DNA of 64,000 bases from a virus. Position 1 is the first letter of the stretch. Each line of letters starts with the position of its first letter. Below, piece after piece: positions 2,928-54,971 of this stretch. The stretch is taken from IMG/VR virus record IMGVR_UViG_3300019888_000107, positions 32,001 through 96,000 of that record, one strand, 5' to 3'. The notes beneath the pieces are model-generated. The model was given only the letters and a program-made list of their open reading frames with translations. It was not told the origin of the DNA and did not search any database. A program made the position numbers and the translations under genes.

Positions 2928-3224
2928 TCAGACCGAGGAGCTGGTGTACTTCGCGGCGAGCTGTGCGGCTGTCACCACGGTCCAGGTGCCATAGTTGTAC
3001 CCAATAGAGTCCGTCGGATTGAGGGTTACAACGGGTCCATTAGGAATAATCACAATGGCAACCGTCGGTGCGGCTGTAGTCGCCAGCGCTTGCACAGTGC
3101 CAGGTAGTACCGTCGACCAATCGGTATTGAACTGAGTCGAAAACGCGCTCACGCTGCCCTGGCTGTAGGTGGTGAAGAAGTAGCGGCTAATCTGGGCATT
3201 CGCGAGGTACTCCGTGGCGGCCAT
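2928..3224 (-). CDS. Hypothetical virion protein
   Basis: ORF with AGGAG RBS. Confidence 0.6.
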   Translation of the reverse strand: MAATEYLANAQISRYFFTTYSQGSVSAFSTQFNTDWSTVLPGTVQALATTAAPTVAIVIIPNGPVVTLNPTDSIGYNYGTWTVVTAAQLAAKYTSSSV

Positions 3225-3307: not shown

Positions 3308-3631
3308 TCAGTCCTCGTCGGAATCCTCGTCGTTCTCCTTGGCCTTTTCAGCGCCCTTCTCTGCCTGTCGCGCCTTGTCAAAAGCAACGTGGTCAAACGA
3401 GCCGTTGCGGCGTAACACCTTCTCGCCACGGTGCGCGGCCAGGAACACCTCAACGTCGGCCTCGTCCTGCTTGGCCTGTTCCTCGGCGCGCTTCGCCTGC
3501 TCCTGCTCCCGCTTAACGCGCTCCTTCGCGGCCTTCTCTTCCTTCGGATCACGTTTTACTTCAACAGGCTTAGGTTCATTCACGCCGGAATCCTTGACCT
3601 CGTCCTGCTTTGTCTCGGGCACAACAAACAC
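3308..3631 (-). CDS. Highly charged hypothetical protein
   Basis: E/K-rich ORF in operon. Confidence 0.55.
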   Translation of the reverse strand: MFVVPETKQDEVKDSGVNEPKPVEVKRDPKEEKAAKERVKREQEQAKRAEEQAKQDEADVEVFLAAHRGEKVLRRNGSFDHVAFDKARQAEKGAEKAKENDEDSDED

Positions 3632-22275: not shown

Positions 22276-22350
22276 GGTTGCCAACCTCGTGCACGGTTGC
22301 CAACCTATTGCACGCTTGCCAACCTTTTGCACGTTGCCAACCTACTGCAC
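22276..22350. repeat. Four tandem 18-19 bp repeats G(G/C)TTGCCAACCTnnTGCAC
   Basis: Directly visible; the first two units contain the palindrome GGTTG-C-CAACC. Confidence 0.85.
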
Positions 22351-22679
22351 GCGAATGAGCATAACCCGCACAGAAGGGCTCGACCATGACCCCTGAACAA
22401 GATCAACCGTGGGGAACCTGTCAAGTCCTACTGAACGTGTGCGTAACGCAGTGAATGGCCCGTCTGGTCACCTGGCTAGGCGGGTCGTTTGCCCTGTGCA
22501 CACGGGCTGTCAGAGCCTCGGTTCGGCGTAACACAAACGGTCGGTTTAGGACGATCATGGGAGCCATTGAAAAGCCCCGGTCAGCCCTGTCACACAATCC
22601 GTGAACTAAATCTCTGTAACGCCTTACCTGCACTTGTGGAATACGTTACACTCAAGCCAGTCAACAAAGGAGAACGATC

Positions 22680-27458: not shown

Positions 27459-27551
27459 CACCCGCCGGTAGGTCGCCATCGCATTCCACAACACAACGTC
27501 AAGGAACGCGAGCACCAGAGCCACAATAATCAGCACCACACTCAGCGACAC
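27390..27551 (-). CDS. Small 2-TM protein (holin-like)
   Basis: AGGAGG RBS; two TM helices. Confidence 0.5.
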   Translation of the reverse strand: MSLSVVLIIVALVLAFLDVVLWNAMATYRRVLLTPLAVVLLSVALLIGSGAIH

Positions 27552-27747
27552 GACAGTCCTCCTAGAGCCACCAACCACACCACAGATCAGAGAGGGCACT
27601 GAATGAACGCGCCAGCAATCCAAACCCACCCCGGAATGGAACGTGGACTAGATGACGGCGAATAAGGATCTGGCCCTGACATCGCCCCTACGCACATGAT
27701 GATCGCCTGTCTTGGCCTCGCGTGTTACGCGCTCGCGTGGGTGGTGT

Positions 27748-28644
27748 TCACAGGCCCTTAGCCGCCAACCACGCCCGCACCGACGCCGCCATCGTGACGT
27801 CCGCGCTGGCCGGCGTGGGAACGGGGGGAACGGGAGGCACGGGCGGAACGGGAATGGGTGACACAGGGAACGGCGCGGCGGTACTACCAGTCAATTGCTG
27901 GAAATCAGCGTTAGCCGTTGCGCCGTCGAGACCGGACGGGGTCTTACCCGACTTCGCTAGCCACGCAGTGGAGATCGGGACCCACCACTCATCGAAGTAG
28001 CGTGAGTGAAACGCGGCCGTCATCTTCTGAAACGCGCTCCACGTAATACACGTCAACGAGCTGGGATCATAAGCGACCAGCGGAACACAGTGCCCACCCT
28101 GGATCTGGGACCGCCCCGCCACGGACCACGGCTGACCAGCATCGAACTGTGTCATGGCGCTGGCCGGGAAATTCAACCCGGCGTACACCACCCCGAACAG
28201 ATCAATACAGTTCTGCAGCAGCGCGGTATTAGTTCCGTCGATCTGGGCGAACGCGGCAATCTTGTACCCACCGAAGCCCGTCGTCCGCCAAAACTCCAGC
28301 CCCGATTGCAGAGTCGCGCCCTGATCAGTGGATGGATTGCCCGAAATGTAGCCCGTGATGGTGGAATAGTCGGCAATGGCCTGAGCAGAAGTGAAACTAG
28401 TGGTCACGCCCTGGCCCTGAAACTCAAAAATGTCAACCGCATGATATCCAGCGGCAATAACACAATCCCCCACAGTGTCGTTACCTAGCATTCCCAGCTC
28501 GGAACGCGGAACGCCGACAGACCAATCAGCCGAAGCCGGCGGAACCAGCGCCGCGCCGGGCAGAGCTCGCAAGTGCACCCTAGGACGGGACGGATCGTTG
28601 GGGAGCCTACCCAGCGCCTTAGGACTCTTCTTACGCGCAAACAT
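27748..28644 (-). CDS. Papain-like (C1) cysteine peptidase
   Basis: GNDTVGDCVIAA; GGHCVPLVAYD; ITW; Pro-rich linker. Confidence 0.65.
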   Translation of the reverse strand: MFARKKSPKALGRLPNDPSRPRVHLRALPGAALVPPASADWSVGVPRSELGMLGNDTVGDCVIAAGYHAVDIFEFQGQGVTTSFTSAQAIADYSTITGYISGNPSTDQGATLQSGLEFWRTTGFGGYKIAAFAQIDGTNTALLQNCIDLFGVVYAGLNFPASAMTQFDAGQPWSVAGRSQIQGGHCVPLVAYDPSSLTCITWSAFQKMTAAFHSRYFDEWWVPISTAWLAKSGKTPSGLDGATANADFQQLTGSTAAPFPVSPIPVPPVPPVPPVPTPASADVTMAASVRAWLAAKGL

Positions 28645-28645
28645 T

Positions 28646-28795
28646 CTAGTACCAGCGCCTTCCGGAGTAATGCCCGGTATTGCCAAGGATGAAGAGGACG
28701 GCGCCAATCACCAGAAGAATCACGCCGAGGGTGTACAGAATGGAGATACCGAGAACCCAACCCAGAATGAGCAGGATGACACCCAGAACGATCAT
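28646..28795 (-). CDS. DUF6131-like small membrane protein
   Basis: MIVLGVILLILGWVLGISILYTLGVILLVIGAVLFILG..GRRWY. Confidence 0.7.
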   Translation of the reverse strand: MIVLGVILLILGWVLGISILYTLGVILLVIGAVLFILGNTGHYSGRRWY

Positions 28796-29031
28796 GACCG
28801 TTTCTCCTGGCAGAGGCTCAGATAGGCTCGGCGATCAAGCAGCTTGTCGATGTCATCGCGGTACCGTACGGCAAGATCAGGGGACACAGCCTTGAGTCGG
28901 GCGTGCACGTGAGCGATATGGGTATCAATAGCCGCCACGGTGTCGCACTGGTAGGTGCGCCCGTCCGAGCCGATCACGGTATCAATCGTGATCCTGTGAG
29001 TACGCGGCGAAGCGGGTGCGGACACGGGCAA
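28792..29031 (-). CDS. Hypothetical protein
   Basis: Coupled to the downstream gene. Confidence 0.5.
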   Translation of the reverse strand: MPVSAPASPRTHRITIDTVIGSDGRTYQCDTVAAIDTHIAHVHARLKAVSPDLAVRYRDDIDKLLDRRAYLSLCQEKRS

Positions 29032-29052
29032 TCACCTCCCGAATATTGGGGG

Positions 29053-29090
29053 TTGACCTCCAGCGCATGCTGAGTAAGCTGACTTACATG
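29053..29090 (+). promoter_or_regulatory. SigA-like promoter for a leaderless gene
   Basis: TTGACC-16-TAAGCT-GACTTAC-ATG. Confidence 0.55.
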
Positions 29091-29438
29091 GACACGCCCA
29101 TCACCTACACGGCGGAACAAATCGAGGCCATTGGGGGTACGACCTGGCGAAGCCGTAGGGGAGTGGTGCGTGTTTATCTCAACAACTGGCCCAAGCTGAT
29201 TGGCTTCGACATCGAGCGCTATGGCACCGGCAACATCAAGGGTGCCATGCTCGACGGCCACGAAATTTCCAACGGCAAGGCAGGCAGATTGCTGGTCGCG
29301 CGGGTGTACTGGGAAGGTGGCACGATCCGTACCGACCTAGCCCAGGTAGCGAACAGCATCGGCGTCGCCGTCCCGGGCGCTGCGCTCGTCGAAACACTGC
29401 TGGCCGAGATCGCCCGTCGAGTGACCGAGGTGGGCTGA
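29088..29438 (+). CDS. Hypothetical phage protein
   Basis: YGTGNIKGAMLDGHEISNGKA motif. Confidence 0.65.
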   Translation: MDTPITYTAEQIEAIGGTTWRSRRGVVRVYLNNWPKLIGFDIERYGTGNIKGAMLDGHEISNGKAGRLLVARVYWEGGTIRTDLAQVANSIGVAVPGAALVETLLAEIARRVTEVG

Positions 29439-29445
29439 ACCGAAA

Positions 29446-29778
29446 ATGTCTGAGTTCAAGATCGGCGACATCGTGATACCGCGGGAGGGACTGACCTGGG
29501 GCCACGCGCCGCGGCGTCCGATCCCCCCAGTACCGCACGTGGTGCGAGCAATACGCGATCTGCGTCGGCGGGGGATGGGGGTGTACCTGACAATTGGGCT
29601 AGACCCGGACAGCGCCACCGCGCGGGCGATCGAGCACCCGACCGTGCGGGAAATGGTGACCCGGTGGGGTTACGCGGTACGCGCGGGGGATGTGGAACGG
29701 AAGGAGCCCTCGGTCATGAGGGGGACCGAGGGCTCCTCACTCCAGCTTCGCGCCAGCAAAGCACCACCGAGTGAATGA
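29446..29778 (+). CDS. Hypothetical protein
   Basis: SEFKIGDIV start. Confidence 0.5.
   Translation: MSEFKIGDIVIPREGLTWGHAPRRPIPPVPHVVRAIRDLRRRGMGVYLTIGLDPDSATARAIEHPTVREMVTRWGYAVRAGDVERKEPSVMRGTEGSSLQLRASKAPPSE
29703..29736. terminator. 13-bp hairpin near a convergent junction
   Basis: GGAGCCCTCGGTC/GACCGAGGGCTCC. Confidence 0.5.
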
Positions 29779-30914: not shown

Positions 30915-33900
30915 CTAGGCGGCATCGGCCCAAGCGAATGCTGGCGCGGACGGTTCGGCAATGATCGAGATCCCGTTCATCTGCGTCTCCATCGCGGCAA
31001 CCAGCGCGGAGGTAGCCTCGACCGCATCCTCCGCCGGCACGAATACGTCCAACTCGTCGTGCACCGGCAACAATACGCACCGACCCCACCGCGTGTCGCC
31101 CCAGCGGATCAGGGCGTCGACCAGGAGTTCACGGGCACTGCCCTGAATCGCGGCGTTCGGACCCTTATGCGGGAGCCGCGGATCGAAATGGATGATCCGC
31201 CCTGAATAGCTGGGATACGCAACATGCCCGGCCTTGATGGCGTTGCGGATGTCAGCCGACCAGGCGGTCAGACCGGGTGTCATCGCGTCCAACGTATCAA
31301 CGGCGGCTTGCGCAACCGCATGAGTGGTGCCACCCTGGGCGGCAAGGGTCGGGATACCCCCGCCGTATAAGCGTCCGAATACAATTCGTTTGGCCACATA
31401 GCGATGTTCTTTCTTCGGTGTGGGCTCGCCCGTCGGGTTTTTCTCGGATACCTCGGACGCTTTCGGACATGCCCCAAACACCTGCAACGCGATCTCAGCG
31501 TGCAAGTCACGACCCTCAGCGAGAAATTGCCGTAGCGTCGTATCCCCGGACAACGCGGCGGCCACTCGCAACTCCACACCACTAAAGTCCGCGCCAATCA
31601 TCAACTGCCCCGGATCGGCGGTGATACACGCGCGAACTCCACCTTGCCTACTAAGTTGTTGAAGATTCAACCTTACACAAGACATGCGTCCCGTCACGGT
31701 GCCCAAGGTATAAACCGTCGGACGCACCCGACCATCACCACGCTCACACAGTTGCGTCATAGGCTCCAGGAACGTACCGATAACCGTCGAATGATGCCGA
31801 TAATCAAGTACCGCGCGAGCCACGTCCCCGACTGCACCCTGATCGAGTTCCGCAAGGGGTTCAAGGACTTCTTTGGCTACCGAGGGTGCACCGGTTTTTT
31901 TCGATAGCGGCAACGTCGCGCCGAGCTCAACCATCACGGCGGCCACCTGCTTGCTCGACCCCGCGTTCTCAATCCCGAACGTTGCAACCCGTTCGCGGGC
32001 GGCGGCTTGGGCGGGTCGGTGTTCGGCCAGCTTCGCGGCTATGTGCTCGGCGTCCAGGCGTACCCCGTGATGAGCCACCCGAGCTGTCATGCGTTGAGCG
32101 AGCCGTTCCCGATAGACAATCTTAGGGTCGGCGATAGGAAGTTCGCGTGCGACAGCGTGGGTGTCGAGGACATCAGACGCGGCGTAACGGATCATCGTCG
32201 AGCGGGTGTAGTCGCATTGTGCCCAACCGGACCGTTCCACCGGAGTTTCAATCTTGGTATCGGTCAACCAACCGGCGGCCTTGAACAGTGCGGCACGTCC
32301 CTCACCAGCCCCCGGTGCGACCGAGCGGGTACCAAGCACAGCATCCGCCAACTTCTTCAAACCGGGATCGCTGCCGGTGGACTGCGGGTCGCCGAGCTTC
32401 GCGGGGATGACGGTGTCGTGCATCCGATCCCACGCCGATTCCAGCTCGATCAGCTCAGCGGCCACCAGAGGCACCAGATCAGCCGTGGCGGAGTGGGCGT
32501 GCAGGAACGTCGCTTCGGCCAGCAGCGTGGCAACCAGAGCCGTCTGAGCGGGGTCCTGCGCATCGAGCACCACCGCGGCTTCGTCGTCGCCGAGCTGGAT
32601 GGTGCGCAGCGCGTACAGCGCATGGCCGACGGGGTAGCCGGTGTTCTCGATATCGACGGTGAGCGCGCCACCGGTTCGCGCCAGGCAATCCCGCACGACC
32701 TTGAGCACCTGGACCTCAGTGAGCTGCACCGCGTGACCACCGCGATCAACTCCAGCGGGCAGACCGATGTACTCGCCAGCGGCGGCGTCGATACCAGCCC
32801 GGCACATGGCCAGCTTCTCCGCGACCTTGACTTTCGCCTTGAGCGTTTTCAGTTCCGCTCGCGCGTCGACCTTGCTGATGCCACGCGTATTTGCCCACAC
32901 CGTGACCTGATGGGGCGTCACGTTCCGTAGCGGCGAGTAGCCCTCGGGGAGCCCATCGGGCAGCGCTGCACCCGCGTCGGCGCATTTTCGCAGGTCAACG
33001 GCAGTATTTTCAGCCAAATCCGCCTCGGTGTGGAGGGTTTCGGCAGGTGTGGAGGGTTCCGAAATCCTTGTTTTTGCTGGTGAAGCCGCGTTTTTGTGAT
33101 CAACTGTGGAGGGTGGAGGGTCGTCACATATAGGGGCCATATATGGCGCATGTGGTATACGTACTTCTTCTTCTTCTACTTCTTGTGTATTTGTTGTCTG
33201 TAAACCCTCCACACCCTCCACAGAAGAAGAAAAAACGGGGGGTGAGCTGGGGTTTTCGGGTGTGGAGGGTTGAGCGCTAGACCCTCCACCAACCCTCCAC
33301 GGACCCTCCACATTTGGAGTGATTCCAGTTTGGCGAGCCTGGTGAGCAGCGACCTCAGCCGAGATCGGTGCTCCCGGCGAACTCGCCGTCCCGGGACCCC
33401 CCGGAACAGAATCGAAAAATCCGTGCCCCCCGTCGACCCGGATCCGCAGTGCCCGGTACCGCCCATCCCTACGGTCGGTAGCGGGATAGTTCAGCTCGTT
33501 GAGGCGAACACCCCATTTTGTGATCTCCAGATGGAGGTTTTTGGCGACGTTGTGGTTGCGGCACCAGCCGATGAACGCGTCGTGCAGCGTCCCGGATCGG
33601 GTGCCGGCCTCCCACGGTTCGCAGGCGTCGTCCACCCACTGCTTGACGGGGTCCTGCTCCTCGGCGATCTCCTCAGCCTGGAAGCGGATGCCCGGCGGCG
33701 CGGCCGAGGTGAGTGCGGAGTTGGGGTCGGCTAACCAGGCGGCGGCTTCAGCCATCAGGAACGCCAGCACCCCCGGAGCCTCGCCGGCCCACACCGCTGG
33801 GGTGAGCGCGCGCCGGACGGTTTCCACCACCTGGGGAGCACCCTCACACGGGATCAACCGGGCCCGCCGTCGGACGGCCGCATCGACCAGCGAAGGCTTG

Positions 33901-35960
33901 TGGTTGGCCGTGAGGATCAGCGTGTGGGTGGGCCGGAACGTGATGGGGTTTTGGTTCATCGCGTTCCCGGTCAGCTCGCCCCCACCGGAGTACCTCTTCA
34001 AGCGCTCCTGAGGGCCCTTGGCGTCTGACGGGGCCTCGTCGATGAAGGACAACCGCCGCCCTTTGAGCGCGAAAATAATCGAGTCATGGGAGTTGTCCCC
34101 ACTGAGTAGTTTGGGGTTGGCGGCGTGCCCGTAGGTTCCCAAACACGACATGATGAGCGTGATGACCGACGTTTTCCCGGTTCCGGCTGGGCCTAGCAGA
34201 ATCGGTAGCGCCGCGTCGGGATACCCGGTCACCGAAATGGACAGCACCCGCAGCACCCACGCTCGGATGGCGGCGTCCGGCCACACCGCGACCAGCAGCG
34301 CGTCCCAATGCGGGGTGGGCATGATCTCGGGCATGACCCCGGCCGAGGATAGGTGCACGATTTTGTCGCCGACGTCGGTCAGCGCCGGACCGTCCCCGCT
34401 GGCGCGCAAGTCATAGGGCATCCCTCCGGCCCACAAAATCTCCGGATCCGAGTCCAGATCGGCCAGTTTTACCGCGCTGGGATGGATACCACCAGCAACA
34501 GTCCGCCGCATGGAAGCCGCAACAGCGTTGGCGCCCGCATTGTTTTCCATCCGTGTCCGTCGCGCGAACTGCCGGTGAGCGACGGTGTACTCAGTTTTCT
34601 TTGTGGGTAGTTCGGGATCCCCAGCGGGCATCAGTTCGACAATTTCCTCCACGGCGCGCCCTGGCAGTGCGTCTCCGTGTAGTTCCCAGCACAGCGGGCC
34701 CCGTTGCAGCCACCCGTTTCTGGTGTCGCTGGCATGGCGAATCATGGGCCGGCACCGATACAGCACAGCCTTGGCAATTTTGTGGTCGGTGTCGCATTGC
34801 GGATCGAACAGCTCAGCACCGATGACCTGCCGCCAGCCGTAGTCGATCGGGGCTGTGATCGGACCGGGCAACGGCTCGTAACGCTCCCCGGACGGGTCAA
34901 ATTCACCACGGTCGTCAATGGGTGCAGGCGCCTGTACGGTGTCGTAGCCGCCGAGGGTCAGACACGGATCCCGATCAACCGGCGAACTCGCCCCGACGGC
35001 GGTGACGGCTTTGCGAGCGGAACTGAGTAGCATAGATTCGAACTCGTGGGCCCGGCCCTCACCCGACGTTAGTTCTTCCCACAACTCACGCAGGATCTCC
35101 AGCGCAACACCCACGCCCGGGTGCCCGCTGGCGCCGAGTTGCACCACGTTGTGGGTGCGGGCGGTCATGACGTCGTGACGAGAGCCGCTTTCGGCTTTAC
35201 CCAGCTCAAGGACCGCCACCTGCGTCGCCCCGGCAACGTCGGAACACGCCACCCGCTCATCAGCCCGCAACGCGCACAGCAACTGCCAGCCGCTACCCGG
35301 GTCGGCCGCCGCCGCGCTCGCCTCGGTAGCCAACGCACCCAACTCCGCCACCCAACGAGCGGGCAATTCAGTCAGACCCGCCGGCCCCGGCACTACCCCA
35401 TCACCCGCTAACCCACCGCCGGGGTCATACCAGCGATACCGCGCACCCTCGGCCAGATCGCGGTGAATCGACGGGGCCACCACGACGTAGCGGTGATGAC
35501 GCTGGATGACCTCGATCGAGCCCCCCAAATGCGTGCCATACCGCCCGGCCGGAACGCGAAACAGCCGAATACCCGACGGCCCTGGTCCGGTCTCACTGCC
35601 CCGGGCGGTGGAGATCCAGGTAGCCGGCAGCACACCCCAGCTCGCCTCATACCCCGCGAGCACGTCGGCACCATTTTTGACTACCTCCCGGTCGGCCGCA
35701 CCCGATTCCCCCGGCACGACCTTGGTGTAGTGGTCGACGTCAAGCCCGATCACCCCGGCGGGTAGCCGCAGCGCGATGGAGTAATCGGCGTACACACCCT
35801 CCGACCACGCGGTGAGCTGTTCGGGCGACGTGTCGATCCCGTCGGCGCCGGTGAACCCGGTGGGTGGTGGAAACTTCTCGGCGGGCGGAACAGGCAGGAT
35901 CCCGCGCCAGCCGGCGGTGTAGTACGCGCTCAGAGCGGATGCGAACACAGGGGAATTCAT
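30915..35960 (-). CDS. Prim-Pol + SF3 (D5-like) helicase + family A DNA polymerase fusion
   Basis: IGLDVDHY and VVAPSIH; GPAGTGKTS and FIDEA; exonuclease TVDIEN; PolA motifs ADFSGVELR, AKRIVFGRLYGG, VHDEL. Confidence 0.88.
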   Translation of the reverse strand: MNSPVFASALSAYYTAGWRGILPVPPAEKFPPPTGFTGADGIDTSPEQLTAWSEGVYADYSIALRLPAGVIGLDVDHYTKVVPGESGAADREVVKNGADVLAGYEASWGVLPATWISTARGSETGPGPSGIRLFRVPAGRYGTHLGGSIEVIQRHHRYVVVAPSIHRDLAEGARYRWYDPGGGLAGDGVVPGPAGLTELPARWVAELGALATEASAAAADPGSGWQLLCALRADERVACSDVAGATQVAVLELGKAESGSRHDVMTARTHNVVQLGASGHPGVGVALEILRELWEELTSGEGRAHEFESMLLSSARKAVTAVGASSPVDRDPCLTLGGYDTVQAPAPIDDRGEFDPSGERYEPLPGPITAPIDYGWRQVIGAELFDPQCDTDHKIAKAVLYRCRPMIRHASDTRNGWLQRGPLCWELHGDALPGRAVEEIVELMPAGDPELPTKKTEYTVAHRQFARRTRMENNAGANAVAASMRRTVAGGIHPSAVKLADLDSDPEILWAGGMPYDLRASGDGPALTDVGDKIVHLSSAGVMPEIMPTPHWDALLVAVWPDAAIRAWVLRVLSISVTGYPDAALPILLGPAGTGKTSVITLIMSCLGTYGHAANPKLLSGDNSHDSIIFALKGRRLSFIDEAPSDAKGPQERLKRYSGGGELTGNAMNQNPITFRPTHTLILTANHKPSLVDAAVRRRARLIPCEGAPQVVETVRRALTPAVWAGEAPGVLAFLMAEAAAWLADPNSALTSAAPPGIRFQAEEIAEEQDPVKQWVDDACEPWEAGTRSGTLHDAFIGWCRNHNVAKNLHLEITKWGVRLNELNYPATDRRDGRYRALRIRVDGGHGFFDSVPGGPGTASSPGAPISAEVAAHQARQTGITPNVEGPWRVGGGSSAQPSTPENPSSPPVFSSSVEGVEGLQTTNTQEVEEEEVRIPHAPYMAPICDDPPPSTVDHKNAASPAKTRISEPSTPAETLHTEADLAENTAVDLRKCADAGAALPDGLPEGYSPLRNVTPHQVTVWANTRGISKVDARAELKTLKAKVKVAEKLAMCRAGIDAAAGEYIGLPAGVDRGGHAVQLTEVQVLKVVRDCLARTGGALTVDIENTGYPVGHALYALRTIQLGDDEAAVVLDAQDPAQTALVATLLAEATFLHAHSATADLVPLVAAELIELESAWDRMHDTVIPAKLGDPQSTGSDPGLKKLADAVLGTRSVAPGAGEGRAALFKAAGWLTDTKIETPVERSGWAQCDYTRSTMIRYAASDVLDTHAVARELPIADPKIVYRERLAQRMTARVAHHGVRLDAEHIAAKLAEHRPAQAAARERVATFGIENAGSSKQVAAVMVELGATLPLSKKTGAPSVAKEVLEPLAELDQGAVGDVARAVLDYRHHSTVIGTFLEPMTQLCERGDGRVRPTVYTLGTVTGRMSCVRLNLQQLSRQGGVRACITADPGQLMIGADFSGVELRVAAALSGDTTLRQFLAEGRDLHAEIALQVFGACPKASEVSEKNPTGEPTPKKEHRYVAKRIVFGRLYGGGIPTLAAQGGTTHAVAQAAVDTLDAMTPGLTAWSADIRNAIKAGHVAYPSYSGRIIHFDPRLPHKGPNAAIQGSARELLVDALIRWGDTRWGRCVLLPVHDELDVFVPAEDAVEATSALVAAMETQMNGISIIAEPSAPAFAWADAA
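33030..33311. repeat. Ten copies of ACCCTCCAC/GTGGAGGGT around an AT-rich core (ori candidate)
   Basis: Counted directly in both orientations. Confidence 0.75.
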
Positions 35961-51113: not shown

Positions 51114-51788
51114 TTAGACCTTGTCCCACTTCGTTACGGTGTAGGTCCCGTAGCCCTGTGAACGCGTCCCACCGATGCCTTGCTTCGCACCGGTGAGCCA
51201 GATCAGCGCCCACTGTTCGTCGGTGATGAGGAAGTCCGTGACCACGGTGAAGTGCAGTTCCACGTTGTCGCAGTACTCGTCGTAGCGGATCCCGTTACCG
51301 GTGTGGACGTGCACGAAACGCTGCTCGATTCCCGTCGCCTCGGTGCGGTCGAAATGCAGTTTGTTGTCCACCACCATGACGTGCTCGGCGATAAAACCCG
51401 TGGACCCCTTATTGGTCGCACCCCACCCCCGTGACTTGAGCTTGCCGGCCGCAACACACACGTTGCACGCCTCCTTGATAGCTGATTTCAGACAACGGCC
51501 TTCCAGGTATAGGCCCCGGTCGTCACGCTTAAAACCGAGAAGGTGCCTATTGGTGTTGACCTCTTCCACGGCTGCCTCGGGACTGACGCCCCGCTCCAGC
51601 ATGGTCGTGGCCACCATCTCCCGAATGGCCTGGTCGGACTGCTCGCCCATATGACGGCGGATCCACCCCTCGGCCACCTTCGGATCGGTCGGGGTACCGC
51701 CGGCAATGCGGTCCACCAAAAGCGTCCCCTTGTAGGTAAAGGGCCATGCTTGCTTGTGGTAGGCGGCGAATACATCAGTTGAGCTCAT
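51114..51788 (-). CDS. Stand-alone Cas7/Csm3-like RAMP protein
   Basis: LYLEGRCLKSAIKEA (cf. PxIPGSSLKGxxR); thumb-like segment ending RYDEY; C-terminal G-loop GIGGTRSQGYG; AAGGAG RBS. Confidence 0.75.
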   Translation of the reverse strand: MSSTDVFAAYHKQAWPFTYKGTLLVDRIAGGTPTDPKVAEGWIRRHMGEQSDQAIREMVATTMLERGVSPEAAVEEVNTNRHLLGFKRDDRGLYLEGRCLKSAIKEACNVCVAAGKLKSRGWGATNKGSTGFIAEHVMVVDNKLHFDRTEATGIEQRFVHVHTGNGIRYDEYCDNVELHFTVVTDFLITDEQWALIWLTGAKQGIGGTRSQGYGTYTVTKWDKV

Positions 51789-51816
51789 TTCGGGTTCTCC
51801 TTTGTTGGGTTGGTGA

Positions 51817-52915
51817 GGATAGTCGGACGGGAGGGGATTGGGGCGGGGCGGGGCGGCCCGTCGGAACGGGTTGGTGGGGCGGAGGGCGGGGGGTGGGGCA
51901 GGCGCGGCGCGGCTTGTCGTACGGGACTGGTTCGGGATGGCGCGGTTTGTCGGATGGGGCAGGCGTTGAGTCGGGTAGTCGGAGCGAATTGGTCACGGTC
52001 TCGGGCAGGCGCGGCTTGTCGGAGGGGGTACGGCCTGATGTGGCCTGGAAACGGGACGGCTCGTCGGGATGGGCAGGAAACAGGTTTGGTGCGGATAGTC
52101 GGGTGTGGGCAGACACGATCGGGGCTTGGCATGGGGTGGTTTTGTCGGAGCGGACCGGCGTGGCGCGGCGTGGCATGTCGGGTTAGGGCGGGAGCGGGAC
52201 CGGATCGGGTAGTCGGAGGGGGCTGGTTTGGGCTGCCTCTGGGATGTCGGATGGGATTGGGATGGGTGGGCTTGTCGGTATGGGCCGGGACGGCTCGGTA
52301 CGGCATGGCTCGTCGGATAGGAGCGGTCCGGTGCGGCGCGGTAGGGCACGGCTGGTCGGAATGGTGCGGGGTTGATGTGGTTGGGGTCGGCCAGTCGGAT
52401 GGGAGGGGAGGGGGTCGGGGCGGAACGGGGTCGGCCCGTCGGATGGGAGGGGGTCGGGGCGGTAGGGCCTGGGGTGGCTTGTCGGAGGGGGTCGTCTTGG
52501 GATGGCTTGTCGGAGTGGGTCGGTTAGTCGGATTGGATCGGTCTGGGGCGTGGCGGGTTGGCTAGTCGGGATGGGTCTGATCAGGGTTCGGTTTGTCGAA
52601 TGGCTTGGGGGGATATGAGCGGGCTCGTCGGTTAACGGGGTTGGGCGGACGCGGGTCGGCTCGTCGGTGCGGGTAGGTAGGGATTGGCTCGTCGGAGGGG
52701 GTCGGGACGGCGCTGGCTGGTTAGGCTCGTCGGCGTGGTTCGGGTTGGATAGTCGGATTGGGTGGGATCTTGGCGTGGCTTGTCGGAAGGGCATGGTGCC
52801 GGGATGGCTTGTCGGAGTGGATCGGGGCTGGATGGGATGGCTTGTCGGAAGGGCATGGTGTGGTTACGGGATGGTCAGTCGGACAGAGCTGACGGGGATG
52901 GGGACGGAGTGTCGA
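51817..52915. repeat. Array block 1: about 32 units of (GGNNN)n-GTC
   Basis: GGNNNGTCG(G) recurs about every 20-45 nt with 5-nt GG periodicity between. Confidence 0.85.
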
Positions 52916-52924
52916 GCCGGAATG

Positions 52925-53143
52925 TCATTTCTTATCGGAGTTCTTCAACAGCATCACGATCCACCAGCCCGGCAGATAAAATGGCCACAACCACACGCAG
53001 CACAGGGACATGACCGCTGCACCCACGTAGTCTTCGGTTTCAATGGGGTCGCCCATGGAGTTGAGAAACCATCGTGCGGTGGGTACCAGGAACCCCAGCA
53101 CGCCCGCTAGGTACACCATCAGCACAATCGTTCCGGGGTCCAT
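52925..53143 (-). CDS. Small 2-TM membrane protein between array blocks
   Basis: Two hydrophobic helices; non-repetitive sequence. Confidence 0.6.
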   Translation of the reverse strand: MDPGTIVLMVYLAGVLGFLVPTARWFLNSMGDPIETEDYVGAAVMSLCCVWLWPFYLPGWWIVMLLKNSDKK

Positions 53144-53244
53144 CAGCGGCGGGTTGCCTGGTTGTAGGCCGCCGCCCGCATGGAAGCCGCTACCTCAGCG
53201 TTGATCCGAGTGACGTCGTCCACATCGGGTGGCAGGGTGCTCAT
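53143..53244 (-). CDS. Possible 33-aa peptide
   Basis: MSTLPPDVDDVTRINAEV..; TGATG coupling to the next gene. Confidence 0.35.
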   Translation of the reverse strand: MSTLPPDVDDVTRINAEVAASMRAAAYNQATRR

Positions 53245-53258
53245 GGGGATCGACTCGA

Positions 53259-53510
53259 ATCGTGTCGAATGGCATGGGTCGGGTAGGCGCGGCTTGTCGA
53301 ACGACATGGGTCGGGTAGGGGCGGCTTGTCGACCGGCTAGGCAGTGTTGGCCGGTCGGGGCGGCGTGGGTAGGGATGGTCACGGCTTGGCCTGTCGGATG
53401 GGGTTGGGGCGGCAGGGAGTAGCTTGTCGAAGGGGGTAGGGAGGGGATGTATCGGCATGTCGAAAGGCCTGGGTCGGGGATGGCGCGGCTCGTCGAAACG
53501 GGAGTGTCGT
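53259..53510. repeat. Array block 2: about 7-8 units, mostly GGNNNGTCGA
   Basis: Same pentamer/GTC grammar as block 1. Confidence 0.75.
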
Positions 53511-54050
53511 TTACCGCCCGTACTTGCGCAGAGAATCAAACATCGTGGTGAGTTCGTGATCGGCGTAATGCTCGCTGACGGTTCGGGTGCCAACCTTTTT
53601 GGCCAGGGCAGTCATAAACGCGTCCATGAGTCGGTTGTCTTCGGTCCGTCGTGCGTAAGTGCCCGCGACGTAGAGCAGGTCATCCCGTCGCAGTTTCCCG
53701 AGTGGTTTGCGGGAGCCGTCTTCCAACGTGAAGGGCACGTCCAGCCACCCTCGCAATTGCGTACTGTCGCCGGCCTGGTGTGTCGTGACCGCTTCGGCGA
53801 ATGCGGCGGGTCGTGCTCGGTGCCGGGCGGCGGTGCGGATCGAACGGTCCCGGTCATTGATCGCCATTCGAATGAACTGCGTCGCCTGAGCCCGCAGCCA
53901 CCCGTCGACCAGCTCGGGATCCTCAACCCGCAGTCGCTCTACTATCTCAGTGGCCACCACACAGGACGTATAGGCGCCGGAGCTGGTGGCGCTGTCAATC
54001 ACCCGACGCATTTCGGTGCCGTAGTCGCGCACGGCGACGGACGTCGTCAT
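53511..54050 (-). CDS. Hypothetical protein upstream of the array
   Basis: 179-aa ORF with AGAGG RBS. Confidence 0.7.
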   Translation of the reverse strand: MTTSVAVRDYGTEMRRVIDSATSSGAYTSCVVATEIVERLRVEDPELVDGWLRAQATQFIRMAINDRDRSIRTAARHRARPAAFAEAVTTHQAGDSTQLRGWLDVPFTLEDGSRKPLGKLRRDDLLYVAGTYARRTEDNRLMDAFMTALAKKVGTRTVSEHYADHELTTMFDSLRKYGR

Positions 54051-54092
54051 ACCTGGTCATACCTCTCTGTGCGCGCTAGGATGCGCCCTTGA

Positions 54093-54132
54093 GAGGGGCC
54101 ACGCATCCGCTGCCAAGCTGCCGTGGCCCCTC
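54093..54132. other. 11-bp intergenic hairpin
   Basis: GAGGGGCCACG/CGTGGCCCCTC. Confidence 0.5.
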
Positions 54133-54149
54133 CCCTGACTGTGATTCCC

Positions 54150-54971
54150 CTATGCGGCGGCCTTGCGCCGGCTGTTCTCGCGGAACCAGTTGCCCAGGCG
54201 AATACCCTTCGCACCGTTCAGGATCTCTACGCCGGCCGCGGCCACGGCGAACCGACGCGAGCAGTGCGTCTTTTGCTTGGTCTTCTCGGCCAGGGCCAGC
54301 AGCGCGTTGAGGCCACCGGGGATGGTGGCGAACCGGGCGATGACGTCGGTGTCGTGGAGCTGGCCTTCGTAGCGATGCAGCAGGATCCCGATCCCGTCGA
54401 TGACCGCCGAGGCCAACCCGAAGTCGCCATAAGCGGTGTGCACGATCCGCAAGGTGCGGCTCAGGTTGTCGCCGCCGGTCTGCTGGTAGATACGCCGCAG
54501 GGTGCCGATGCAGTGCACCGAGCCCTCCGTCCTGTCCATCGACACGTGCAGGCCCAGCTCGTCGAGGATGTCGCTGAGGGCGCAGTCTTCCTCGCGGCCC
54601 GCCTGGACACCGACCCGATACCTATCGAAGCCGTTGACAGCCAACACATTGTTGAGACGCAGGAACATTTCGGCTTCCTGCTGATCGGTGAGGCCGCTGA
54701 ACACGGCGCAATCGAGCTTCGTCTCACCGAGCCCCATTCCACGCATCGCCTCAATACGGTGCTGTCCGTCGATCACGTAGTGGTGACCGTCGCGGTAGTT
54801 CAGGGTGGGCACACCCACCTGCTCGATGTCGAACTGCGCGATCAGGTGGTTGACGTGGTAGGGCTTGAGTTCGCGCTGCACGAGCGGTGAGACGCGCATG
54901 ACGGCGAGGGCGACGCTCTGAATTTCAGCGTGTCGCTGAACGTCTCCGTCGGTGTTAGGCTGCTTGGGCAC
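54150..54971 (-). CDS. ParB/Srx-like DGQHR protein (DUF6551-like)
   Basis: VQREL..YVIDGQHRIEA..EAEMFLRLN. Confidence 0.75.
   Translation of the reverse strand: MPKQPNTDGDVQRHAEIQSVALAVMRVSPLVQRELKPYHVNHLIAQFDIEQVGVPTLNYRDGHHYVIDGQHRIEAMRGMGLGETKLDCAVFSGLTDQQEAEMFLRLNNVLAVNGFDRYRVGVQAGREEDCALSDILDELGLHVSMDRTEGSVHCIGTLRRIYQQTGGDNLSRTLRIVHTAYGDFGLASAVIDGIGILLHRYEGQLHDTDVIARFATIPGGLNALLALAEKTKQKTHCSRRFAVAAAGVEILNGAKGIRLGNWFRENSRRKAAA

What the first reader, a model, noticed from the sequence alone, without database searches (positions are those of the whole stretch)
51114..53510. Candidate phage RNA-guided system: lone Cas7-like RAMP gene next to a non-CRISPR pentamer array
Seen: a 224-aa gene with RAMP hallmarks whose RBS directly abuts a 1.1-kb array, with a second 0.25-kb block further upstream. 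No cas1/2/3/5/6/10 and no canonical CRISPR repeat occur in the window. Known: Cas7-family RAMPs polymerise along guide RNA with a fixed nucleotide step per subunit. Inference: each GTC-delimited unit is a guide in which the constant GG is gripped by one subunit per 5 nt and the variable bases encode a possibly gapped target, for example against competing phages or for gene silencing. I recall reports of viral RAMP plus GG-pentamer RNA systems (VIPR-like). Check the literature before claiming novelty; here the third base is variable and the G-rich strand is antisense to the gene.
Basis: partly seen in the sequence, partly recalled or inferred. Interest (0 to 1): 0.95.

Follow-up and report, generated by a model that had tools for sequence, protein, structure and literature searches.

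The report
Actinophage VIPR guide-RNA system
This uncultured phage carries a VIPR system, a CRISPR-related RNA-guided DNA silencer first described in 2026: one small Cas7-like protein, a partner gene and about 48 short guides written in five-base repeats, so the kind is known, but here the array runs opposite to the published layout.

Summary
Window 51114-51788(-) encodes a 224-aa Cas7-like RAMP. Two arrays (51822-52924, 53264-53510) consist of NNNGG pentamers, G-rich on the + strand, punctuated by GTC.

It belongs to the VIPR class (bioRxiv 10.64898/2026.04.26.720920), about 0.88 overall. The family profile matches the published Vipr family (hhalign 94%, E 1e-7). The model matches only CRISPR Cas7-type backbone RAMPs (Cas7, Csm3, Cmr4). 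47-48 of 54 homologous loci carry the same arrays, and 34 carry the same 179-aa upstream partner.

In one homologous locus a whole GTC-bounded unit, read by the published one-base-skip rule, matches the codons A-G-E-I-D/E-L-I-V-D of phage DnaB helicases in 5 of 5 hits; it matches 20 of 20 coded bases in at least one of them. A composition-matched control gave 1 hit. No target was found for the window's own guides, which code at most 16 bases.

The open point is the guide strand. The G-rich strand is antisense to the operon in 39 of 40 scored loci, and arrays fill gene-to-gene gaps. I favour a C-rich sense precursor (0.5) over a G-rich antisense RNA (0.38). No RNA data could be obtained.

This scan has already reported such loci in other genomes. 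It is a new member of a known kind.

The parts
53511..54050 (-). 179-aa accessory gene ('vapX'), first gene of the module
   Evidence: Homologues lie upstream of the RAMP gene on the same strand in 34 loci. The model is all-helical with pLDDT 92.9. It has no PDB fold match, no Pfam, PHROG or NCBIfam family, and no detectable similarity to SUSP1 vap1.
53264..53510 (.). Array B: 11 delimiters, NNNGG pentamers on the + strand (C-rich on the gene strand). It abuts the vapX stop codon.
   Evidence: The strand of the RNA is not established.
53143..53244 (-). Putative 33-aa ORF between the arrays; its stop overlaps the next start (TGATG)
   Evidence: Read from the sequence. It is not conserved in the other loci examined.
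52925..53143 (-). Putative 72-aa hydrophobic small ORF between the arrays
   Evidence: No family match.
51822..52924 (.). Array A: 39 delimiters. Units have the form GTCGG-(NNNGG)n-NNN and are 8-89 nt long, with modes of 28 and 33 nt. The local junction motif is GG-CTY-GTCGG.
51795..51802 (-). Ribosome-binding site AAGGAGAA of the RAMP gene, 19 nt from the first delimiter
   Evidence: Sequence.
51114..51788 (-). vipr-like gene: 224-aa single-RRM RAMP with a helical insert (about residues 36-79) and the G-loop GIGGTRSQGYG (204-214)
   Evidence: AlphaFold model pLDDT 78.6. Foldseek E 3.5e-6 to type VII Cas7 and Csm3. VIA Z 9.7 and 8.4. hhalign to the type II Vipr family gives 94.2% probability, E 1.1e-7.
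54091..54134 (-). 13-bp GC-rich hairpin in the 99-nt gap before vapX; candidate boundary of the transcription unit
   Evidence: MFE -45.1 kcal/mol for the 111-nt stretch, z -2.35. There is no T-run, so its function is inferred.

Best explanation
This is a VIPR system of a divergent clade found mainly in phages and prophages of actinobacteria. The module is vapX, array B, two small ORFs, array A and vipr, all on the - strand. I propose that the operon transcript itself carries the arrays as C-rich RNA. That RNA would be cut or bounded at each GAC punctuation (GTC on the other strand), giving about 48 short guides of 1-9 pentamers. One Vipr protomer would hold the fixed trinucleotide of each pentamer (N-Y-C on this strand, G-R-N on the other) and expose the two variable bases. 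The filament would then read double-stranded DNA two bases on, one base skipped, so that the skipped base falls on codon wobble positions. This would silence genes of competing phages, such as replication genes. Shown here: the protein fold and its homology to Vipr, the array grammar, the near-universal gene-array linkage, the hypervariable guide content, and one unit-to-target match that obeys the skip rule in a homologous locus. Inferred: that RNA is made, which strand is the guide, how it is processed, and DNA binding and silencing.
For: VIPR membership: the model hits only CRISPR RAMPs, and profile-profile comparison with SUSP1-type Vipr gives 94.2%, E 1.1e-7 over 127 columns, aligning helix 1 and the G-loop. 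Arrays accompany the gene in 47-48 of 54 loci, and the contig is a phage (terminase, portal, primase-polymerase). Code: G1 is 98% G, G2 81%, and the third base 51% G. The two variable positions carry about 1.98 bits although the DNA is about 67% GC. No guide is shared between distinct phages except one pair, L002 and L006. The L048 unit gave 5 of 5 IMG/VR hits in frame on the DnaB_C motif AGEI[DE]LIVD, and 20 of 20 coded bases match in at least one of the five contigs. The reversed-pattern control gave 1 hit, and the match stops at the delimiters. The host dnaB in the same genome differs at 3 of 20 positions. Sense strand: 681 delimiters in 39 loci are C-rich on the gene strand, against 4 in one locus. 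Arrays run from the vapX stop codon, which often forms the first delimiter (TGAC-TAC-CC), to the vipr RBS. In L032 the last array is followed within 15 nt by a bidirectional terminator (A7-stem-T4), so no room remains for an antisense promoter. In Microcystis phage Mae-JY09 the order is gene, array, hairpin. The SUSP1 residues that hold G1 and G2 (D177, W178, R138) are replaced by A/G, S/T and D/E, while R179, which holds the pyrimidine, is invariant (paper 720927). Other fixed trinucleotides (GAC, CAC, WGT) are already reported.
Against: Every experimentally characterised Vipr binds G-containing repeats, and the discovery paper lists NNNGG as an alternative consensus. Locus L022 has the array G-rich on the vipr strand, as in SUSP1. 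The semi-conserved third base sits 3' of GG, where SUSP1 has Y. No RNA data could be obtained, and no promoter was identified on either strand. No target was found for the window's own guides. Most units code only 8-14 bases, which is very little specificity. The residue argument rests on a remote profile alignment.
Confidence: 0.5

Rival explanations
1. It is the same VIPR system, but the guides are the G-rich strand (GG-N-NN), as in all published VIPRs. They would be transcribed antisense to the operon from promoters inside or beside vipr. The GTC-containing junction would then serve as a minimal 3' tail.
For: Homology to Vipr, whose solved complexes hold GGY. The discovery paper lists NNNGG repeats. 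L022 has a G-rich array on the vipr strand upstream of the gene. Two of the four SUSP1 vrRNA tails read here begin with a similar 8-nt step, GG-NNN-GAT-GG. The semi-conserved third base follows GG, as Y3 does.
Against: This reading needs antisense promoters inside coding sequence in 39 loci. The arrays leave 0-40 nt to the flanking co-directional genes. The L032 terminal array abuts a terminator whose stronger T-run faces the antisense direction. Antisense RNA would meet the sense transcript that is needed to express vipr and the small ORFs. The G-contacting residues of SUSP1 Vipr are not conserved.
Confidence: 0.38
2. The RAMP and array form an RNA-guided complex, but it acts on RNA (as the type III Csm3/Cmr4 backbones do) or regulates its own operon, rather than silencing foreign DNA.
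For: The closest solved folds are RNA-targeting type III and type VII backbones. A C-rich sense guide for the L048 unit would also be complementary to the helicase mRNA, because the G strand equals the target's coding strand.
Against: The profile homology is to Vipr, which binds double-stranded DNA. Only one target pair is known, so no strand bias can be judged.
Confidence: 0.07
3. The arrays are DNA-level repeats (iterons, centromere sites for the nearby ParB-like protein, or structural G-rich DNA), or a proline-rich coding region, and their position beside the RAMP gene is incidental.
For: A ParB-like DUF6551 gene lies at 54150-54971. Long ORFs are open on the C-rich strand.
Against: The ParB-like gene accompanies the module in only 3 loci, whereas the arrays accompany the RAMP gene in 47-48 of 54. 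The content is hypervariable with a fixed 5-nt frame and has no period-3 signal. One unit matches a foreign gene by the VIPR rule.
Confidence: 0.03

Closest known systems
VIPR systems, reference type II of Escherichia phage SUSP1 (KT454805.2; bioRxiv 10.64898/2026.04.26.720920 and .720927)
   Same: Both are phage-encoded and have a lone small RAMP with a helical bundle, thumb and G-loop. Both have a two-gene module with an accessory gene and pentamer repeats with a fixed trinucleotide plus two hypervariable bases. Both follow the one-base-skip, wobble-aligned code (seen here for one unit of a homologous locus). Profile homology is E 1e-7.
   Different: The SUSP1 repeats are GGY-NN on the gene's own strand, with 9-16 repeats and a structured 3' tail, and there are four separate vrRNAs. 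Here the G strand is antisense and the third base is free (G-biased). Units have 1-9 pentamers with no hairpin, about 48 units are packed head to tail, and the accessory protein is unrelated. The G-contacting residues D177, W178 and R138 are replaced.
Other VIPR types in the same preprint: NNNGG, YNNNG and NNNNG repeats and 'staggered' arrays (methods and fig. S18 legend)
   Same: [quoted passage not shown] This clade may well be one of the seven types.
   Different: The figures and tables are not held, so type assignment, taxa and strand could not be checked. Staggered arrays were not verified by RNA sequencing in the paper.
Non-canonical VIPR arrays in the Evo-PIN survey (bioRxiv 10.64898/2026.10.21.760802)
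   Same: The survey shows that the fixed trinucleotide can change (GAC, CAC, WGT, TGH) beside Vipr-like folds.
   Different: No CC- or YC-type motif is named in the text, nor punctuated short units.
Class 1 CRISPR backbones (Cas7, Csm3, Cmr4; type VII Cas7)
   Same: Best structural matches (Z 8-9.7). One subunit binds per fixed step of guide, and a base is flipped out periodically.
   Different: There is no Cas1, no repeat-spacer array and no other RAMP in the contig. The guide is non-contiguous with a 5-nt step.

Membership tests
VIPR | Vipr protein: minimal single-RRM RAMP with G-loop, thumb and helical bundle | tested here: met
   The model (pLDDT 78.6) matches Cas7, Csm3 and Cmr4 only. A helical insert follows strand 1, and the G-loop GIGGTRSQGYG is near the C-terminus.
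VIPR | Sequence homology to published Vipr proteins | tested here: met
   hhalign of the family alignment A4 against the SUSP1-type family A3 gives 94.2% probability, E 1.1e-7, over 127 columns. A single sequence against the profile was not significant.
VIPR | Non-CRISPR context: no adaptation genes and no CRISPR array | tested here: met
   No Cas1 match, no Pfam RAMP match and no CRISPR-like tandem repeat. The contig is about 88% complete, and other cas families were not searched.
VIPR | Adjacent tandem pentamers with a fixed trinucleotide and two hypervariable bases | tested here: met
   G1 98%, G2 81%, third base 51% G; the variable positions carry 1.97-1.98 bits. Present in 47-48 of 54 loci.
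VIPR | Canonical GGY motif on the same strand as vipr | tested here: not met
   The third base is not a pyrimidine. The G strand is antisense to the gene in 39 of 40 scored loci. The paper allows 'a related consensus'.
VIPR | vrRNA of 9-16 repeats capped by a conserved structured 3' tail | tested here: not met
   Units have 1-9 pentamers and only an 8-nt junction. There is no Rfam match and no recurrent hairpin.
VIPR | Accessory vap gene in a two-gene module | tested here: inconclusive
   A conserved 179-aa partner is present in 34 loci. It is unrelated to SUSP1 vap1 and has no recognisable fold.
VIPR | Targets follow the one-base-skip rule, with the skip at codon wobble positions | tested here: inconclusive
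   Met for one unit of the homologous locus L048. No target was found for the window's own units.
VIPR | Array-derived small RNAs bound by the protein; dsDNA binding and silencing | not testable with these tools
CRISPR-Cas class 1 | Repeat-spacer array with cas1/cas2 and several RAMPs | tested here: not met
   Only one RAMP-fold gene was found. cas2 was not searched separately.

The most novel reading that the evidence does not exclude
In this clade the guide is the C-rich sense strand. Vipr would then have switched its fixed trinucleotide from GGY to N-Y-C. The guides would be carved directly out of the vapX-vipr operon mRNA at GAC marks, giving dozens of very short guides with a 5' handle like that of class 1 CRISPR RNAs.
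Probability: 0.45. Interest if true: 0.7.

Novelty: new member of a known kind. Interest (0 to 1): 0.45.

Why it matters
VIPR is months old as a concept and has been characterised only in proteobacterial phages. This clade occurs in uncultured phage contigs, in actinobacterial genomes and in one Microcystis phage. It shows how far the system can be compressed: tens of guides of 8-20 coded bases with a three-base punctuation mark and no structured tail. One guide spells a conserved helicase motif through synonymous variation, which is direct support for the wobble-skipping logic outside the model systems. If the guide proves to be the C-rich sense strand, base recognition by Vipr is more plastic than published. 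Guide biogenesis would then resemble processing of an operon mRNA, which bears on the proposed VIPR-to-CRISPR transition.

Tried and rejected
1. The global Fourier period-5 signal is not significant, because the phase resets at each delimiter. Local measures were used instead.

2. Pfam, PHROG and NCBIfam searches and a PDB sequence search gave nothing for the RAMP or the partner.

3. Megablast of the locus against phage records found no match. tblastn found only Mae-JY09.

4. The consensus promoter and terminator scan of the locus was uninformative. Rfam gave no match.

6. Skip-rule enrichment of guides against the contig and the 53 loci showed no signal above shuffles.

7. The dinucleotide usage of the variable pair fits codon positions 1-2 best, with TA depleted to 2.3%. 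However, it is barely better than uniform, and a per-guide orientation test was not significant (z 1.2-2.1).

8. Guides shared between phages, which could test whether the third base is read, amounted to only one pair, L002 and L006.

9. Two 20-base patterns from long units gave 0 IMG/VR hits.

10. The window's 16-base unit gave 6 unrelated hits. Its 14-base unit gave chance-level hits, apart from one redundant family of contigs at 55-57% GC that I do not interpret.

11. An apparent antisense terminator inside the L028 vapX gene was judged to be a coding-sequence coincidence.

12. The protein atlas gave only unnamed clusters for the partner.

Full report
OBSERVATION

The finding is accurate. 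Window 51114-51788(-) is a 224-aa ORF, and its ribosome-binding site AAGGAGAA lies at 51795-51802. From 51822 to 52924, and again from 53264 to 53510, the + strand is about 50% G. It is built of NNNGG pentamers interrupted by GTC, so a junction reads GG-CTY-GTCGG and makes an 8-nt step.

- Delimiters occur at 35 and 45 per kb in the two arrays, against 4.75 per kb elsewhere.
- Of 48 delimiter intervals, 23 equal 3 mod 5 (p 1.3e-5).
- In array A 72% and in array B 78% of GG dinucleotides have an in-phase partner 5 nt away, against at most 55% in composition-matched shuffles of array A.
- There is no codon periodicity.
- The whole 110,390-base contig holds no other such tract.

The contig is an IMG/VR virus record, about 88% complete. 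It encodes terminase, portal, head protease, a primase-polymerase, a helicase and a methyltransferase. It has no Cas1 match, no Pfam RAMP match and no CRISPR-like repeat.

THE PROTEIN

No family library recognises the protein. It has 630 relatives among metagenomic, viral and actinobacterial proteins, and 515 representative clusters.

An AlphaFold model built from 33 sequences has pLDDT 78.6. It matches only CRISPR backbone RAMPs:
- type VII Cas7 (Foldseek E 3.5e-6; VIA Z 9.7);
- Csm3, Cmr4, gRAMP and Csf2 (Z 7-9).

I located the reference Vipr gene in Escherichia phage SUSP1 at KT454805.2 28474-29061(-). Its residues H17, C173, D177, W178 and R179 agree with the structural preprint. A profile of its family aligns to a profile of the present family with 94.2% probability and E 1.1e-7 over 127 columns. 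The alignment pairs helix 1 and the G-loop. The protein is therefore a remote but genuine Vipr homologue.

In that alignment R179, which holds the pyrimidine of GGY, is invariant (R209 here). The guanine-contacting residues D177, W178 and R138 are replaced by A/G, S/T and D/E.

THE MODULE

Fifty-three loci from viral contigs and genomes, plus Microcystis phage Mae-JY09, were collected.

- A 179-aa helical protein (window 53511-54050, here called vapX) lies upstream on the same strand in 34 loci. It has no recognisable fold and no similarity to SUSP1 vap1.
- Arrays with the same grammar accompany the gene in 47-48 of 54 loci. Most of the rest are truncated at the relevant flank.
- Family-wide, the first G is 98% conserved, the second 81% (A in lower-GC relatives), and the next base 51% G.
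- The two remaining positions carry 1.97-1.98 bits although the DNA is about 67% GC.
- Guide content is not shared between phages, apart from one pair, L002 and L006.
- Unit lengths run from 18 to 58 nt, with a mode of 33.

WHAT THE UNITS DO

The published rule replaces GG plus the next base with one unread base. I applied it to long units from the homologous loci.

Two 20-base patterns found nothing in IMG/VR. The third came from a 53-nt unit of locus L048, on a Streptosporangium contig, and gave five exact hits. All five lie in frame on the motif A-G-E-I-D/E-L-I-V-D of DnaB-family helicase genes (Pfam DnaB_C, E 1e-76). The unread base falls on the wobble position and differs among the targets.

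Including the terminal triplet, 20 of 20 coded bases match in at least one of the five contigs. The match does not continue through GTC on either side, so one GTC-bounded unit is one guide. The same pattern written backwards gave one hit. A 16-base pattern gave six unrelated hits, so about 0.4 chance hits are expected for 18 bases.

In the L048 genome the host-type dnaB motif differs at 3 of 20 positions and another copy at 2 of 20. The guide's third bases do not track the target wobble bases (4 of 9 match), so they are not read.

This supports the one-base-skip code and a phage replication gene as target in this clade, from a single guide. For the window's own units, which code at most 16 bases, no target stood out.

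WHICH STRAND IS THE GUIDE

In SUSP1 the GGY repeats lie on the gene's own strand. Here 681 delimiters in 39 loci are C-rich on the gene strand, against 4 delimiters in one locus, L022.

Evidence for sense transcription of the arrays:
- The arrays occupy the whole space from the vapX stop codon to the vipr RBS. The stop codon often forms the first delimiter, TGAC-TAC-CC.
- In the window two small ORFs sit between the arrays on the same strand.
- In L032 the last array is followed within 15 nt by a bidirectional terminator (seven A, a 14-bp stem, four T) before a convergent gene.
- In Mae-JY09 the order is gene, array, strong hairpin.

The sense, C-rich strand is therefore almost certainly transcribed. 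An antisense G-rich RNA would need promoters inside coding sequence. Together with the residue pattern above, I favour the sense strand as precursor and guide. Read that way, the fixed trinucleotide is N-Y-C and ends in a pyrimidine, as GGY does.

Evidence against that reading:
- All characterised Viprs bind G-rich repeats.
- The discovery paper lists NNNGG as an alternative consensus.
- L022 has the opposite orientation, with a sigma-70-like promoter for vipr between array and gene.

No RNA data could be had. I put 0.50 on the sense guide, 0.38 on the antisense guide and about 0.1 on other mechanisms.

COMPARISON AND NOVELTY

The class was published in 2026. A language-model survey has since reported non-canonical fixed trinucleotides.

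The discovery paper mentions NNNGG repeats and staggered arrays without tails, which probably include this clade. Its figures and tables are not held, so I cannot assign a type.

Earlier reports of this scan describe the same kind of locus in at least eight other genomes, including antisense and C-rich forms.

The locus is therefore a new member of a known kind. Its points of interest are the strand question, the very short guides and the DnaB match.

Noticed in passing
L048 (Streptosporangium sp. NPDC051023 contig), G-strand unit about 3547-3600 of the locus: One guide of this homologous VIPR locus spells the DnaB helicase motif AGEIDLIVDK. Five uncultured viral contigs (L057-L061) match it exactly. 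The host-type dnaB in the same genome differs at 3 of 20 coded bases.
   Followed up: yes
L022:2620-4000: This is the only locus with the array G-rich on the vipr strand. It lies in a 1.4-kb gene-free gap that also holds a GC-rich hairpin (3040-3100) and about 400 nt of unexplained non-coding sequence with no Rfam match. A sigma-70-like promoter (CGGACA-16-TATATT) sits between the array and vipr.
   Followed up: partly
L055 (Microcystis phage Mae-JY09, PP395641.1 37713-38976): An isolated cyanophage encodes a 33%-identical Vipr-like protein. It is followed directly by a C-rich CCGAC-punctuated array and a 12-bp hairpin. Both genes are annotated as hypothetical.
   Followed up: partly
L054 (SUSP1) 27500-29511: Two of the four SUSP1 vrRNA tails begin with an 8-nt step, GG-NNN-GAT-GG, which resembles the GG-NNN-GTC-GG junction of this clade.
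   Followed up: no
window 22276-22352: Four tandem copies of a 19-nt unit (GGTTGCCAACCTATTGCAC), each holding the palindrome TTGCCAAC-like core. They are possibly operator or iteron sites.
   Followed up: no
window 30915-35960 (-): A single 1681-aa ORF joins a primase/helicase-like N-terminal part to a DNA polymerase C-terminal part (PHROG 1156 and 17).
   Followed up: no
window 54150-54971 (-): A ParB-like DUF6551 gene lies just upstream of the module. It is separated from vapX by a 13-bp GC hairpin, and it accompanies the module in only 3 other loci.
   Followed up: partly
L089, L103, L118, L124, L126, L130, L139, L160, L182: A family of viral contigs at 55-57% GC shares the motif NQDIVEVGI[VI]GDGG, which the window's 14-base unit at 52274 would spell. 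It could be chance amplified by redundancy, since the scan was at chance level overall.
   Followed up: no
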